Of a stretch of DNA of 64,000 bases, positions 1,028-39,199 are shown in pieces (the stretch's first letter is position 1; each line of letters opens with the position of its first letter). Position numbers and translations under genes: made by a program. The notes under the pieces were generated by a model. That model was not told where the DNA came from, did no database searches, and saw only the letters and a list, made by a program, of their open reading frames with translations. This DNA is from the human T2T-CHM13v2.0 reference genome, Homo sapiens. The stretch is from the NCBI RefSeq assembly GCF_009914755.1, contig NC_060943.1; one strand, 5' to 3'.

Positions 1028-1603
1028 CTTTAGACTCAGACACCACTGTATCAGGCTGCCTCTCACAATCTACACCAATGTCACACTGCCAAATCTCAAA
1101 GAAGATTTGGTTGTCACCACTTAAATCCCCTCATGAATGTTCTGGAAAAACTCCCTGCCCTTGTTGACATAGCCTCTCTGCATAAAACTCCTATCATATT
1201 CCCACTCCTAAATGTCTCCAAAGCCAACTTTGTCACTTACTGATTAATACCTACCATCTCCTATCTTGCTTTGTTTGCAAATCAAGTCTGTAAATAAGAT
1301 CAAAGGTATCTAGTGTGCCATTCTACTTAATCACTCGTCTCCTCCTTAACAAATTACATTCTAAAAAAAAGTTTTAACTTCTCCTCCAGGAGTTGTATTT
1401 CTATACCATAAAAATCCTTTGGAAAAAAAGAAGCACATGGGAGAATTGAATGATTTACCTAATGCATATGTGAATATTCAATGAAAGGGAAATGGGCATT
1501 TGGAAAGGCAATGGAGGACAAGGGGACCCATCTCTACGGTCCTGTTGTTAATTGGGAAGAGAAAACCAAGGGACCAGGTAAATGAACAAAAAAAAAAACT
1601 AAC

Positions 1604-1663
1604 CTTGAGTTGGCCATTAGTACCAATGCTGTCTTCCACTTCAGGGGGCCTTCACTTGCAGAA
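1604..1663 (-). CDS. ZNF529: ZNF529 start-codon exon (46 nt UTR + ATG GCC AAC TCA AG, MANS/S); rest of gene lies left of the window
   Basis: Minus strand: acceptor ctcttggttatgtag, ATG at 1617-1615, donor gttagt at 1603. MANSS matches my recollection of the ZNF529 N-terminus and fits the ZNF382 neighbourhood. Confidence 0.75.
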
Positions 1664-1979
1664 CTACATAACCAAGAGGGAGAAAGGACTCATGACATCC
1701 TGGACTGGTTAAATAAGAACACAGTGTTCACCACCAGAAAAGCCCATCACACACAACAAACACACCCAGATCGAAGAGGGAAACTAGAATACTGTCGACT
1801 CCTCCCCACATCCGAGAAAAAGGTACGACCAATGCCTAGCAGTTTCTAGGGAACACAGCTCAGGAAATACTGTAGTTCTTTAATGTATAAATGGCCTCCA
1901 AACTCATGCAAGGGGAGTTATCCCAGGAATGAATACTACACCTATGCCCTCCCCTTCACGTCTTCCCAGGAAACTTCAT

Positions 1980-2092
1980 TTATCTATCTTATCTATCTTA
2001 TCTATCTATCTATCTATCTATCTATTATCTATCATTTATCTATCTTCTATATATCATCTATGTAATCTATCTATATGCGTGTGTGTGTGTGT
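1980..2092. repeat. Compound (TCTA)n / (GT)n microsatellite
   Basis: Direct inspection. Confidence 0.9.
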
Positions 2093-2249
2093 ATAAGACC
2101 TCACGAAGAGATTCCATCACAGACATCACAGAGTCGGAAAAATGACGCTTTACCCAAAACAAACTCCTACAGGCTCACGGAAAAAAACGAACAAACAAAC
2201 AAACAAAAAAAAACAAAAAAACACTTCTACCCCGTTCACACTTATAGTT

Positions 2250-3300
2250 GGTCACAACAGTGCTGTCACACGATCACGTCACCGTAGACCAGGGTCACAC
2301 GATAGACCCCGCCCCTACTCACCGTCCTGAGTCCGATCAAACAGCACCCACGGCACACACTAGGGTCTCCGTCTCTCACACACACACACCACAATGACGT
2401 CGTAAACAATAGCACTAACCACCATCGTCCGCAGCTCCCGCGTACAGAGGCCTCAGGCTCCCGGCTCCACGTGGACCGACCTCGCCCGGCAGCGCGGGGC
2501 CACCTCACCGCGAGCTCCTCCCGCAGCCCGGCCCGGGTCACCTCGACTCGCCAGGCTTAACTCAATAACCACAACACCGGAAAAGGAAGCAAAGGTCGAA
2601 GTTCATCCGCGGCCCTGAGGCCTGTGGGAAACGTAGTCCAACAACGAAAGAGCCCTGAAGCTCAAGCGGAGCCCGCTGGCCGCAGGGGCCGCACCACGCC
2701 CCAGACCCTGGAGTTTCCGGGTGCGCAGACCCTTGCCATCAGCAGAGGCTGCCGCTGCGCGTCCCCTAGGCGCGGAAGAGGCGGCTGGTGGTCCCTGACG
2801 GCAAGGTGAAGTCGAGGCAGTAATCGGGAACCCAGGTTGGGAGGACAGAATGGGGAACAGGAAGCTGGGGCGAGGGTGGTCTTGGGGGAGGTGGGGGGCC
2901 GCGGAATTCTAGGTGGCCCCTGCCTCACCTCTGGAAAGAACCGGAAGCCCGGGCCGGGGAGGGTGAAGGGAGTCGCGGACCCGGCTGCTCAGCCGAGGAG
3001 GAAACCCGGACCCCAGGCTGAGGGAGGCCGAAGAAGGAACTGGAGGGCCGGGCTGGGAAGGCCTGAAGCGGGTACAGCCTTTAGGCTGGGGAGGGTCGAG
3101 GGGAGAACTCGGAGCCTGAGTCGGGCGAGGTTTTGCTCCACTCTGGCTTCTAAGTGTGGGGGCCTCAGGATGTGACCCGTGGTCGTAAACCTGAGGGTGA
3201 CTTGGAGTTTTTGTCCGTTTTGCACCATGAGAAAGGCCCCAGATGGAATCTGGCAGGTAGCGGCGGTTCAGTGTGTGTGTGTCTGCCTTAGGGCGTGTTT
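2250..3300. promoter_or_regulatory. CpG-island bidirectional promoter (proximal)
   Basis: High GC/CpG. ZNF143/THAP11-type ACTACnnnTCCCA motif on the minus strand at 2623-2639; CRE-like TGACGTCG at ~2395; ETS-like CCGGAA at ~2577 and 2941; G4-type GGGCCGGGGAGGGTGAAGGG at 2951-2970. Confidence 0.85.
2420..2580 (-). other. ZNF529: Candidate ZNF529 proximal non-coding exon 1
   Basis: Minus-strand donors in the CpG island: g|gttagt at 2419 and acg|gtgagt at 2322. TSS approximate. Confidence 0.5.
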
Positions 3301-36380: not shown

Positions 36381-36836
36381 GATTATTCTCAACTACAACA
36401 TAGACCAGATAGGCAAAGATTTAAAAGTTGTCAACTGTCTTCATCAGGGCTTGGGAAGGTATTCTCATCCACTACTATCAGTGTAAATTGGCAAAAAGTC
36501 CAAGAAGAACCGTTTGGAAATACACAGTAAACCTGTGGTTAGAGGTAGATGGAAGGCAGAGCTGCAGAGGGAAAAACACAGTGTTCCCTCTCTTCAAGCT
36601 AAAACAGGTTCCCCAGAATCCTGTATACTTTACCAAGAGACTGGGTTTCTGGTGTTTGTGAGGGAGCCTGATTTGTCTGTTTTCCCACTAACTACCATCC
36701 TGGACATCTGAAGGGTACACAGGGTGGACAAGTGCTGAAATAGTGAACATTCATGCAGATTTAACTGAGTTAATTCTGGGAGTTCTGAGTCAAGTATGGT
36801 CTCACATACGTATATCCTCCATCTTTGCTTTCTCAG

Positions 36837-36907
36837 GACTGTTTCTTTTTCCAAAAGAGGAGCTCAAAAGAGAAAGTTCATCTAGAAATCTCAAAGCCAT
36901 GTCTCAG
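36837..36907 (+). CDS. ZNF382: ZNF382 exon 2: 5' UTR plus start gccATG TCT CAG (MSQ)
   Basis: Acceptor ctttgctttctcag, ATG at 36899-36901, donor gtgaga at 36908. In frame with the 39212 acceptor ([11 protein letters not shown]). Confidence 0.85.
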
Positions 36908-37027
36908 GTGAGATGATGTTTCCTCTCTTTCTGAAATAACTTTTTTTCATGGTGTATGAACATGAGCTTCACTGTCCTTTAACCTTCCCTGATATTGGGA
37001 TTTGCTTCCATGAAATTAGTCTTCAGT

Positions 37028-37155
37028 CAGGGCCAGATTAGGCTGAGGCAGGCAAGTGGCATGAGGTGAAATATTTAAGGGGTACCCTCAGGGCTGTGCC
37101 CTCCTAAATTTTGCATTCTAGGTGCCTCACCTGCCTCACCCTGTATCCAGCCCTG
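37028..37155. mobile_element. MER96-like palindromic hAT MITE
   Basis: cagggccagattaggctgaggcaggc ... cctcacctgcctcaccctgtatccagccctg. Confidence 0.65.
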
Positions 37156-39199
37156 TTCACAATTTCTCCATTCCAACCAAATCAACTTAAGCCTTCCCCA
37201 AGTGTACCTTCTGGTTGTACATATTCATTGGGTATATCATTCATCATCTCCTTTCTCAGTCTTCTCACAAACAAACTGCTGGAATAGAAAGGTATTGTCT
37301 TGATTTAAATGGGAATATATGGCTTGAATGAATTTAACTTGTCCTGATGCTGATTTGAGACCTAAGCTGTGAGTAGTCATGGAGCAGACGTGGAAAAACC
37401 TTGATGATCTCCGCTAGCCTAGGTTTTGCAATGGTACGTTGGGAAATAGAAGTGGTAGATCCCAGCATTAGTTTCTGGAAAGATGTCCTGCTTTGTGAGG
37501 TGTTTAGGATAGCAATTTGATTGCAGGCTTGTAAAGGAAACACGTTTTATGTTCCTCCTCTCTGATCTTTTTTCATTCATGTCTGCTAGCCATTCCTACA
37601 AATTGTGGGCTGCCAGTGAAAACCTTTCCAGTATTCCAATGCTGTTAGAGATTTGTTATTTTCTTTTTAGTTTCTTCTAATTTTTTATTTGCGGGTGCAG
37701 GAGAAGGAAATCCATATGCCAGGCCACTTTTGAAATATTCTATTGTTGATCAAACAGTACTTTGTCCTCTTTTCATATCTTTCAGAAAATTCCTCTTTAG
37801 CTCATCCACCAACCTTTAAAATACTGGTTTTCCTCAGATGCTAATTGGTTCTCTTCTTCTTCACAGTCCGTTTTTCTCTACGCACAATCAGATTCACTCT
37901 GAAGGCTACACTTAGTGTGATTCTAGTGACTCTCAAATACCCCTCTCCACTCTAGACCTCTGTCCAGAGTGTCAGAACCGAATATTCAACCTCCAGTAGC
38001 TATCACCACCTGTATGTTCCACAGACAAAGTACATTTCCAAAGCTTACCTCATTACTTCCTTTGGTCCAGCTTACATTTTCTTCCGTTTCCCATTTTCAC
38101 TTTCTAGTCCCAGCAGCCATGCATTTGCCTATGCAGATAAAATGCCTGTATCTTTTCCACTCTACAGCCAATTTACGACCATCTCTGTTGTAATGGTGGT
38201 CATGTAGGAGCAGTTGTCCTCTGTCAGCCCGCTGACACTTCCTTAATCTAGGAGACATTTCTAACCATGGTTACTTAATTGTCATTTCCACCTAACATGT
38301 GATAAGCCTTTTCCAGTCTTCAGGAGTATTACCTCAAAACTTTTATCACATAACGTGTGTCAACTTATGTTTATTGATGTTCTTTACATTCCTTAAAGCA
38401 ACAGACCCAAAGTAGGGCATGCCTCACAGTAGAATGTATAAGACGGTCTATTGGAAGGAAATAAAATACTAACAATTTACATTCGAGAGCAGTATTCATT
38501 AACAATGTAGATTTTCATAAATGCCTATTGATGGTTTATAAATAGCTACAATGTTGGGAATGTGTTCAGTATATCTTTAAGACCACTGTTCTGTAGGAAA
38601 AAAAAATCTAGTATCATGTCATAATATCCCCACTGCCTATCTCCATATACCTTTTCCTTCTTAGAGCTCAAAGACTGTTTCCTAACATACTGTGCCTTTT
38701 GCTATTTCCTGATTTACTAACTGGTTTTTTTCTCCCCATGAATTTTTAAAAGCTGATGCCCTGTATTCCTACAAAACAAATTCGTTGTGAGTACAAAACT
38801 TTTATGTCCTCAATGAAGCCTCGGAGTACAAAATGAAATTTTTCCTTGTTTTGTGACACTTTACCTTGTACGTATTTCTGTCATTGCATCTGTAAAACCT
38901 ACTAAGTGCATGTATTTACATGTATGCCCCTCTCTTAGCCTATAACTTCTCATGAGCAGGGTCAGGGTTTTATTCATTTTGGTCTACCAGGCAACCAGTC
39001 ACATTCAGGACAAATAGTGTGATCTCAGTATGTTTAGCATGAGATTATAAGTAAATACAAATGGATGTATTTTCAGAGAGAATTTTATGCAATATAAAAC
39101 ATAAATAAGGAAACTAGTCTGACCAGTAAACATTGTCAGTACTAGGTCTCCAATATCTAGTTCTCACACATTTCCGATCACTTCAGGATGAACTAGAGT

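What the first reader, a model, noticed from the sequence alone, without database searches (positions are those of the whole stretch)
1030..37340. The two promoter regions are ancient paralogues: a duplicated head-to-head KRAB-ZNF unit with reciprocal decay
Seen: unique sequence at ~1030-6120 is colinear, same orientation, with ~31850-37340. Anchor pairs: ggaaaaactccctgcccttg (1144) / ggaaaaacttcctgcccttc (32303); taaataagaacacagtgttcaccacc (1710) / taaataagaacacattcttcaccacc (32938); cccgggtcacctcgactcgcca (2532) / cccgggtcacctcaactcacca (34391); cctggaaacatcatacaaactaaatccaatatgttgaaatga (4619) / cctggaaacaccatattaactaaaaccagtatgttgaaatga (35526); tgtagtaattaaaatagtcatttt (4859) / tgtagtaattaaaatagttatttt (36054). 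The left copy has an intact minus-strand ATG exon (1604-1663) and a dead plus-strand ATG exon (~5525). The right copy has a live plus-strand ATG exon (36837-36907) and only a decayed counterpart of the minus exon (~32850-32900). Inference: a divergent gene-pair cassette was duplicated and each copy lost the opposite gene while both promoters stayed bidirectional. A MER96-like MITE, L1, the MER4 LTR and Alus each occur in only one copy, so the duplication predates them. I do not know whether this has been reported.
Basis: partly seen in the sequence, partly recalled or inferred. Interest (0 to 1): 0.8.

Follow-up and report, generated by a model that had tools for sequence, protein, structure and literature searches.

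The report
Duplicated two-way promoter block, ZNF529/ZNF382
The promoter regions of the neighbouring human zinc-finger genes ZNF529 and ZNF382 are very old copies of one two-way promoter block; this is a real but fairly ordinary trace of how such gene clusters grow.

Summary
With Alus masked, window 1095-6158 and 32253-37379 form one same-strand colinear chain of 14 HSPs (702 bits). The next best chain in the window scores 80 bits. Eight other 5' regions of the cluster score 135 bits or less against 802 for the pair. Whole-genome searches with five Alu-free pieces found only the partner copy.

Divergence is K2P 0.35-0.38, roughly the age of the eutherian radiation. All five Alus, an LTR-like repeat and a MIR-like repeat sit in one copy only.

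Exon decay is reciprocal. The left plus-strand exon-2 relic keeps its ATG but lost both splice sites. The right minus-strand relic lost its ATG and acceptor.

The inference of two lost genes is not shown: the 26-kb spacer holds no KRAB or zinc-finger relic. I favour copying of the roughly 4-kb 5' block alone, inside one ZNF529|ZNF382 head-to-head pair.

Complications: the exon-2 elements belong to a cluster-wide family, and the right copy's two are closer to other genes' elements. An unannotated minus-strand ATG-exon relic lies at 23068-23156.

Interest is modest; no report was found.

The parts
1060..6579 (.). Left copy (L) of the bidirectional 5' block. Strong HSPs span 1095-6158; the ends are extended by weak colinear matches.
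31877..37470 (.). Right copy (R) of the block. Strong HSPs span 32253-37379.
1604..1663 (-). L-minus: ZNF529 exon 2, intact. ATG at 1617-1615, GT donor and AG acceptor present.
   Evidence: RefSeq table in the finding
2420..2572 (-). ZNF529 exon 1. It aligns with R 34281-34431 inside HSP 2406-2597 / 34267-34456 (65%).
2200..3000 (.). Left CpG island and promoter core (GC 0.58-0.67, CpG o/e 0.68-1.07). ZNF529 TSS at 2572 (-); ZNF529-AS1 TSSs at 2350 and 2629 (+).
   Evidence: RefSeq table
5456..5533 (+). L-plus: dead counterpart of ZNF382 exon 2. The ATG is kept at 5524, a 4-bp deletion removes the GT donor, and there is no AG acceptor.
32740..32926 (-). R-minus: positional counterpart of ZNF529 exon 2. 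The ATG now reads AAG, the acceptor is lost and the GT donor is kept. It is more similar to the TSS-proximal elements of two upstream minus-strand genes than to L-minus.
34200..35000 (.). Right CpG island and promoter core (GC 0.66-0.70, CpG o/e 0.76-0.96). ZNF382 TSS at 34598 (+); ZNF529 alternative first exons 34411-34542 and 34611-34696 (-).
   Evidence: RefSeq table; PMC10853790 passage
36837..36907 (+). R-plus: ZNF382 exon 2. Its ATG at 36899 is in frame with the alternative acceptor 39212 only.
3297..3857 (.). Interspersed LTR-like repeat found in the left copy only (4152 candidates genome-wide, 40 scored, 68-83% identity). The family name was not determined.
4004..4178 (.). Low-copy old repeat (MIR-like; the name is a guess) found in the left copy only. 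It carries ZNF529-AS1 exon 4101-4180.
5109..6021 (.). Two Alus (5109-5432 and 5708-6021) found in the left copy only.
33177..33479 (.). Alu found in the right copy only. Further right-only Alus lie at 35632-35948 and 36072-36385.
4614..4660 (.). The best-kept short island (87% to 35521-35567). Others are 2246-2277 / 34003-34034 (91%) and 4859-4882 / 36054-36077 (96%).
23068..23156 (-). S-minus: an unannotated ATG-exon relic in the spacer (AG acceptor, ATG at 23076-23074, GT donor). About 69% identical over about 300 bp to the ATG-exon region of an upstream minus-strand KRAB-ZNF gene at window -161430..-161110.
30099..30442 (+). A: a younger partial copy (85-92%) of the right block's left edge (31677-31930, 32222-32280, 33553-33658), lacking 32281-33552.

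Best explanation
L and R are two copies of one ancient bidirectional KRAB-ZNF 5' block. The block runs: minus-strand exon 2, minus-strand exon 1, CpG-island promoter, plus-strand exon 1, plus-strand exon 2. It is about 4 kb once later transposons are removed. A local same-orientation duplication, roughly at or before the eutherian radiation, produced the two copies.

Shown: the paralogy, its specificity, its two-sidedness, the reciprocal loss of start and splice signals in the two inner exon-2 copies, and the one-copy repeats.

Inferred: only the 5' block was copied, inside a single ZNF529|ZNF382 head-to-head pair like the neighbouring ZNF461|ZNF567 pair. After that, the ZNF529 gene body lay next to L and used L's minus-strand exons, while the ZNF382 body lay next to R and used R's plus-strand exons. 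The two inner halves became redundant and decayed, but both CpG islands kept firing in both directions. This now yields ZNF529-AS1 from L and the upstream alternative first exons of ZNF529 from R. The spacer then grew by transposon insertion.

On this reading the 'reciprocal decay' follows from geometry and needs no loss of whole genes.
For: Chain of 14 HSPs, 702 bits, against 80 bits for the next best in the window. The pair scores 802 bits with 17 HSPs, against 135 bits or less for 8 other cluster 5' regions. Five Alu-free pieces had no relative in the 3.1-Gb genome other than the partner copy or copy A, apart from a few short hits taken to be chance: 1095-1357, 4200-5100, 32241-33176, 33480-35631 and 36386-37400. 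Promoter cores align at 68% across both CpG islands. Exon-2 states are given. All five Alus, the LTR-like repeat and the MIR-like repeat occur in one copy only. For a block-only copy: there is no KRAB or zinc-finger relic in 6159-32252 on either strand (best E 0.95). There is no colinear similarity of the spacer to the ZNF382 body or the ZNF529 body. Homology fades within about 0.1-0.2 kb of both ends even though neutral intron DNA inside the block is still detectable at 65-69%. Spacer positions 12198-22248 are one repeat split by nested insertions. RefSeq still has ZNF529 transcripts starting at R, and one hg38 core promoter is assigned to both ZNF382 and ZNF529 (PMC10853790 passage). The neighbouring pair ZNF461|ZNF567 has the same make-up: the ZNF382 linker is closest to ZNF567 (51% over aa 1-168), and the ZNF529 linker matches ZNF461 (34%) and two other minus-strand genes.
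Against: The spacer holds a well-kept minus-strand ATG-exon relic (23068-23156), which suits a lost minus-strand gene downstream of R. At least 15.9 kb of the spacer is not locally multi-copy, and I could not show that it is all transposon. Both block ends abut repeats, so the homology may be truncated by detection limits. R-minus is closer to the TSS-proximal elements of two upstream genes (62-64% identity; z 21-26) than to L-minus (56%; z 8.4). R-plus is closer to the ZNF566 ATG exon (64%; z 28) than to L-plus (56%; z 13). The ZNF529 linker is no closer to ZNF461 than to two other minus-strand genes. No outgroup genome could be examined.
Confidence: 0.45

Rival explanations
1. A whole head-to-head gene pair (minus-strand gene, promoter, plus-strand gene) was duplicated in tandem. 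The left unit then lost its plus-strand gene and the right unit lost its minus-strand gene, and both gene bodies were later deleted or overwritten.
For: The paralogy is two-sided, with an exon-2 relic on each inner side. A minus-strand ATG-exon relic with intact splice sites lies at 23068-23156, downstream of R-minus. Its spacing and order mirror those of the upstream gene that holds homologues of both elements, at -153.5k and -161.3k. A further plus-strand exon-2-like relic lies 1.2 kb upstream of the ZNF260 TSS, which suggests that partner loss recurs in this cluster.
Against: No KRAB-A, KRAB-B or zinc-finger relic lies in the spacer on either strand, although 65-70% DNA identity would leave long finger arrays detectable. 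No colinear match links the spacer to either gene body. Two apparent chains proved to be interspersed repeats. The model needs two independent, complete erasures.
Confidence: 0.3
2. A mosaic or multi-step origin. The minus-side and plus-side halves of L or R come from different events: unequal crossing-over or gene conversion among several cluster members. L and R would then not be simple sister copies.
For: R's two exon-2 elements are nearer to other genes' elements than to L's. Copy A shows that further partial local duplications happened here. Short islands of 87-96% identity stand out against a background of about 67%.
Against: For L, R is the nearest relative in 3 of 3 segments compared. 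In the neutral distal-intron segment L-R (65%) exceeds R-outgroup (59%) and L-outgroup (56%). Both halves share one orientation, order and similar divergence. L being a long branch at two exons, one dead and one recoded, explains the asymmetry.
Confidence: 0.12
3. A dispersed family block only. The similarity reflects the common ancestry of all KRAB-ZNF 5' ends in the cluster, with no specific L-R duplication.
For: Exon-2-like elements and a TSS-proximal piece are shared with ZNF566, ZNF260, ZNF461 and two upstream genes.
Against: The L-R chain scores 802 bits against 135 or less for 8 other regions. Genome-wide searches found only the partner. Caveat: only -200 kb to +64 kb plus 15 kb of the cluster was compared at high sensitivity. 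The genome search also missed the partner itself for 1358-3290, so its reach is limited.
Confidence: 0.05
4. Chance, or copies of one long interspersed repeat.
For: Identity is low (63-70%) and the blocks contain transposons.
Against: The controls. The aligned pieces have only two copies in the genome. The alignment crosses annotated exons and both CpG islands.
Confidence: 0.01

Closest known systems
Expansion of KRAB-ZNF clusters by tandem or segmental duplication (for example 19q13)
   Same: Local same-orientation paralogy within a KRAB-ZNF cluster. The 5' exons and promoter pieces are shared across neighbouring genes. A review passage states that the family expanded by segmental gene duplication in clusters such as 19q13 (PMC6348741, passage seen).
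   Different: What survives here is only the 5' block, with no coding body. The two copies serve two genes of opposite orientation rather than two tandem paralogous genes.
Bidirectional (head-to-head) CpG-island promoters that give a divergent lncRNA
   Same: By the RefSeq table, both blocks have TSSs on both strands 56-57 bp apart. ZNF529-AS1 starts at L. One core promoter is assigned to both ZNF382 and ZNF529 at R (PMC10853790 passage). PMC5577775 notes that lncRNA promoters can be adapted from bidirectional promoters (passage).
   Different: The divergent partner here is not just by-product transcription. It sits on sequence homologous to another gene's exon 1 and exon 2.
lncRNAs as fossils of protein-coding genes (PMC5577775: title, abstract start and one passage seen)
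   Same: ZNF529-AS1 starts from a promoter and 5' region paralogous to the 5' end of ZNF382, and a dead ATG exon lies in its first intron.
   Different: No coding-exon relic (KRAB or fingers) was found. The dead exon 2 is not part of the lncRNA. Downstream AS1 exons lie in a MIR-like repeat (4101-4180) and an Alu (6421-6517). If only the block was copied, no gene ever died here.

Membership tests
Local segmental paralogue (duplicated DNA segment) | Colinear, same-orientation similarity well beyond chance | tested here: met
   14 HSPs, 702 bits, against 80 bits for the next best chain; anchor shuffles 0 of 100
Local segmental paralogue (duplicated DNA segment) | The aligned parts are not an interspersed repeat | tested here: met
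   Five pieces match only the partner or copy A in the whole genome, apart from a few short hits. Repeats inside the blocks (3297-3857, 4004-4178, Alus) lie outside the aligned parts.
Local segmental paralogue (duplicated DNA segment) | The partner is the closest relative | tested here: inconclusive
   At block level yes: 802 bits against 135 or less for 8 regions. At the two exon-2 elements R is nearer to other genes. The rest of the cluster beyond -200 kb and +64 kb was compared only by the less sensitive genome search.
KRAB-ZNF 5' gene module (CpG-island exon 1, short ATG exon 2, then a KRAB-A exon) | Exon 1 lies in a CpG island | tested here: met
   CpG o/e 0.68-1.07 at 2200-3000 and 0.76-0.96 at 34200-35000; exons taken from the RefSeq table
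KRAB-ZNF 5' gene module (CpG-island exon 1, short ATG exon 2, then a KRAB-A exon) | A short exon 2 with ATG and splice sites | tested here: met
   Met for L-minus and R-plus. Not met for L-plus (no donor or acceptor) or R-minus (no ATG, no acceptor).
KRAB-ZNF 5' gene module (CpG-island exon 1, short ATG exon 2, then a KRAB-A exon) | A KRAB-A exon and a finger exon lie downstream | tested here: met
   Met for the outer sides: ZNF382 at 39200-39338 and 55433-56853; ZNF529 KRAB-A at -16060..-15920 and fingers near -23000. Not met for the inner sides: nothing in 6159-32252.
Bidirectional promoter | TSSs on both strands within 1 kb | not testable with these tools
   Taken from the RefSeq table supplied with the finding (2572- and 2629+; 34542- and 34598+) and from the PMC10853790 passage. 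No transcript data were available here.
lncRNA fossil of a protein-coding gene | Residual similarity of the lncRNA locus to the coding exons of the ancestral gene | tested here: not met
   Only the ATG-exon relic L-plus was found. No KRAB or finger relic lies along ZNF529-AS1 (2350-23993).

The most novel reading that the evidence does not exclude
A two-way promoter shared by a head-to-head KRAB-ZNF pair was itself duplicated. This gave each gene a private promoter and left two live 'half-orphan' promoters, which now produce a lncRNA (ZNF529-AS1) and distal alternative first exons of ZNF529. More broadly, head-to-head 5' blocks with one decayed partner exon recur in this cluster: a plus-strand exon-2 relic upstream of ZNF260 and the minus-strand ATG-exon relic at 23.1 kb. 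The 19q13.12 cluster may therefore have grown by copying head-to-head units, or their promoters, and repeatedly orphaning one side.
Probability: 0.3. Interest if true: 0.5.

Novelty: new member of a known kind. Interest (0 to 1): 0.35.

Why it matters
It explains where the ZNF529-AS1 promoter and the distal ZNF529 first exons come from. Both sit on sequence homologous to a neighbouring gene's 5' end. It also gives a dated natural experiment of about 90 million years or more: two copies of one CpG-island promoter have both stayed active in both directions while their inner exons decayed. That bears on how lncRNAs and alternative promoters arise in tandem gene clusters, and on reading methylation-biomarker CpGs that are assigned to both ZNF382 and ZNF529. 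The general process, duplication within KRAB-ZNF clusters, is textbook, so the value is local rather than conceptual.

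Tried and rejected
(1) Relics of a ZNF382-like gene in the spacer. An apparent plus/plus mini-chain (8701-8951, 9796-9848 and 16676-17150 against 60439-63244) was rejected. 8690-8960 is an interspersed repeat (3432 candidates), and 16645-17150 hits several places on both strands.

(2) Relics of a minus-strand gene's intron. Spacer pieces 12198-12328, 21044-21220 and 22136-22248 are colinear with a ZNF566 intron segment. This was rejected because that segment is an interspersed repeat (14256 candidates). It was kept only as evidence of nested insertions.

(3) tblastn with the ZNF382 protein and with the KRAB-A exons of ZNF529 and an upstream gene against the spacer gave nothing. 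The best E-values were 6.6 and 0.95.

(4) Genome search with 1358-5100 was swamped by the LTR-like repeat. The search with 1358-3290 found only (TATC)n and low-complexity hits and did not recover the right copy. Negatives from this tool are therefore weak below about 70% identity.

(5) The Rfam scan of 900-37600 gave 0 matches.

(6) Extension of homology beyond the ends was not significant. L 300-649 against 30812-31234: 98 of 300 shuffles as good. L 7064-7338 against 37380-38700: 231 of 300.

(7) The ZNF461/ZNF567 promoter, plus or minus 5 kb (L023), shows no similarity to either block at E 0.01 or less other than low complexity. Its best chains, at E 1 or less, score 53-86 bits.

(10) Literature. 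Searches 'ZNF529'+'ZNF382' (12 papers, all biomarker or GWAS lists), 'ZNF529-AS1' (13 papers, all on cancer or expression), 'ZNF529'+'KRAB'+'paralog' (0), and two KRAB bidirectional or head-to-head queries (0 each) found no report of this paralogy. Subscription journals and supplements were not searched.

Full report
THE OBSERVATION

The window is human chr19 (T2T) 39246001-39310000. A first BLASTN of 1-7500 against 30500-38500 gave many Alu hits. Anchor 1 occurs exactly twice in the window at up to 3 mismatches, and 0 of 100 shuffles gave two matches.

I defined multi-copy DNA by self-comparison: 59 intervals totalling 19,409 bp, mostly Alu. I masked it and repeated the search with parameters suited to about 65% identity. 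The seven best HSPs of the left block against the whole masked window, on both strands, all lie on one chain. That chain has 14 HSPs and 702 bits and spans 1095-6158 against 32253-37379. The next best chains anywhere score 80 bits (plus) and 65.5 bits (minus). Both sides of the CpG island contribute, about 419 and 284 bits. Weak colinear matches extend the ends to 1060/31877 (1 of 300 shuffles as good) and 6579/37470 (2 of 300). Further out nothing is significant.

IT IS NOT A REPEAT, AND THE PARTNER IS THE CLOSEST RELATIVE

The whole genome could be searched. Piece 1095-1357 has two places in 3.1 Gb: itself and the right copy at 71%. Piece 4200-5100 matches only itself and 35521-35567. Piece 32241-33176 matches only itself, the left copy and the small copy A. 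Piece 33480-35631 matches itself, the left copy, A and three short hits that I take to be chance. Piece 36386-37400 matches itself and two short hits.

This tool is not very sensitive. For 1358-3290 it did not recover the right copy at all.

The L-R pair scores 802 bits with 17 HSPs. Against 8 other regions the best score for either block is 135 bits. Those regions are four promoter regions to the left, two exon-2 regions, the ZNF461/ZNF567 promoter and the middle of the spacer.

The names ZFP82 and ZFP14, which I use for the loci at about -153k/-163k and -192k, are recalled from the gene order and come from no call. ZNF260, ZNF566, ZNF461 and ZNF567 are placed from the table supplied with the finding.

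ANATOMY

Each block runs as follows: minus-strand exon 2, minus-strand exon 1, CpG island, plus-strand exon 1, plus-strand exon 2. The promoter cores align globally at 68% (490 of 717 columns), with shared motifs across ZNF529 exon 1 and its right counterpart. Both have CpG islands, at 2200-3000 and 34200-35000.

- ZNF529 exon 2 (1604-1663) has its ATG, acceptor and donor.
- Its positional counterpart at about 32740-32926 reads AAG where the ATG was. It has no acceptor AG but keeps the GT donor.
- ZNF382 exon 2 (36837-36907) has an ATG at 36899. This is in frame only with the alternative acceptor 39212 (549 aa). With the RefSeq-select acceptor 39187 it is out of frame, and the annotated CDS starts at 39200.
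- Its left counterpart (about 5456-5533) keeps the ATG at 5524, but a 4-bp deletion removes the GT donor and there is no acceptor AG.

The following occur in one copy only: two Alus in L and three in R (the pair lying between the same HSPs have opposite orientations), an LTR-like repeat at 3297-3857 (4152 candidates genome-wide, 40 scored), a MIR-like low-copy repeat at 4004-4178 and a (TATC)n run at 1976-2095. I could not name the repeat families because no repeat library was available.

AGE

On 1,310 aligned columns the identity is 70.6% and K2P is 0.376, or 0.352 without CpG sites. Half of that per copy, at about 2e-9 substitutions per site per year (general knowledge, not a call), gives roughly 90 million years. 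This is a lower bound, because only the best-kept 30% of the unmasked DNA aligns. A cattle GWAS table lists ZNF529, ZNF382 and ZNF461 together on BTA18 (PMC8341487, passage only), which is consistent with a pair older than the primate-ruminant split.

WHAT WAS DUPLICATED

I found no trace of either lost body.

- tblastn with the ZNF382 protein finds no KRAB or finger relic in 6159-32252 on either strand (best E 6.6).
- KRAB-A exons of ZNF529 and of an upstream minus-strand gene find nothing either (best E 0.95).
- The spacer shows no colinear DNA match to the ZNF382 body or the ZNF529 body.
- Two apparent chains turned out to be interspersed repeats.
- One of those repeats is split into three pieces at 12198-12328, 21044-21220 and 22136-22248. 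About 10 kb of the spacer is therefore a nest of insertions. Another 10.2 kb is locally multi-copy.

A simpler model is that an ancestral ZNF529|ZNF382 head-to-head pair shared one promoter and only the 5' block of about 4 kb was copied. Each gene body then used the nearer block, and the inner halves became redundant.

In support, RefSeq still has ZNF529 transcripts starting at the right island. A promoter survey assigns one hg38 core promoter to both ZNF382 and ZNF529 (PMC10853790, passage). The neighbouring ZNF461|ZNF567 pair looks like a sister unit: the ZNF382 linker is matched best on chr19 by ZNF567 (51% over aa 1-168). The ZNF529 linker matches three minus-strand genes including ZNF461 (39%, 36% and 34%).

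EVIDENCE THAT CUTS THE OTHER WAY

A profile of the exon-2-like elements found a new minus-strand element in the spacer (E 5.6e-4). It also found, at similar strength, the expected exon 2 of ZNF461. The spacer element (exon about 23156-23068, ATG at 23076-23074, AG and GT intact) is 69% identical over about 300 bp to the ATG-exon region of the upstream gene at -161.3k. That same gene also holds the closest relative of R-minus, at -153.5k. So R-minus and the spacer relic mirror that gene's two-exon 5' structure.

This fits a lost minus-strand gene. It fits equally an abandoned ancestral ATG exon of ZNF529 transcribed from the right promoter.

The exon-2 elements also form a cluster-wide family. 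R-minus is nearer to the two upstream genes' elements (62-64%) than to L-minus (56%). R-plus is nearer to the ZNF566 ATG exon (64%) than to L-plus (56%). For L, R is the nearest in 3 of 3 segments. For R, L is the nearest in only 1 of 3, the neutral distal intron (65% against 59% and 56%). I read L as a long branch at these two exons, one dead and one recoded, but a mosaic history is not excluded.

COMPARISON WITH WHAT IS KNOWN

Expansion of KRAB-ZNF clusters by segmental duplication is established (PMC6348741, passage). lncRNAs arising from bidirectional promoters or from dead genes are also known (PMC5577775: title, abstract start and one passage). That paper's main text has no occurrence of 'ZNF529', 'zinc finger' or 'KRAB'.

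My searches found no report of this particular paralogy. Subscription journals and supplements were not covered.

This is therefore a new instance of a known process, with one less usual feature: what was copied and kept is a promoter block serving two genes of opposite orientation.

VERDICT

Interest is modest.

Noticed in passing
window 23068-23156 (minus strand): An unannotated ATG-exon-like element with an AG acceptor, an ATG at 23076-23074 and a GT donor. It is 69% identical over about 300 bp to the ATG-exon region of an upstream minus-strand KRAB-ZNF gene (window -161430..-161110). ZNF529-AS1 exon 23131-23216 overlaps it in antisense.
   Followed up: partly
L018 (window frame -41242..-41094, plus strand): A plus-strand exon-2-like element with an ATG and a GT donor, 1.2 kb upstream of the minus-strand ZNF260 TSS (-42461). 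It looks like a third head-to-head block with an orphaned partner exon. The ZNF260 TSS region also matches the ZNF382 TSS region (34551-34602) in gene orientation.
   Followed up: partly
window 30099-30442: A younger partial copy (85-92%) of the right block's left edge (31677-31930, 32222-32280, 33553-33658). It lacks the 1.27 kb in between and the Alu at 31913-32240. Its positions 9-190 are an interspersed repeat (455 candidates genome-wide).
   Followed up: partly
window 57960-58256 (plus strand, frame 3): Degenerate zinc-finger-like translation in the ZNF382 3' UTR, about 1.1 kb past the stop codon (tblastn E down to 8e-5). These look like decayed fingers downstream of the current stop.
   Followed up: no
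window 12198-22248: One interspersed repeat of about 670 bp is split into three pieces (12198-12328, 21044-21220, 22136-22248). About 9.6 kb was therefore inserted into it, which shows how the spacer grew.
   Followed up: partly
window 4101-4180 and 6421-6517: The internal exons of ZNF529-AS1 lie in a MIR-like low-copy repeat and in an Alu. Beyond exon 1 the lncRNA is built from exonised transposons.
   Followed up: no
window 2246-2277 / 34003-34034; 4614-4660 / 35521-35567; 4859-4882 / 36054-36077: Short islands of 87-96% identity stand out against a background of about 67%. They are candidate conserved regulatory elements kept in both copies. The first abuts a RefSeq 'enhancer' feature (33869-34009). 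Rfam gave no match.
   Followed up: partly
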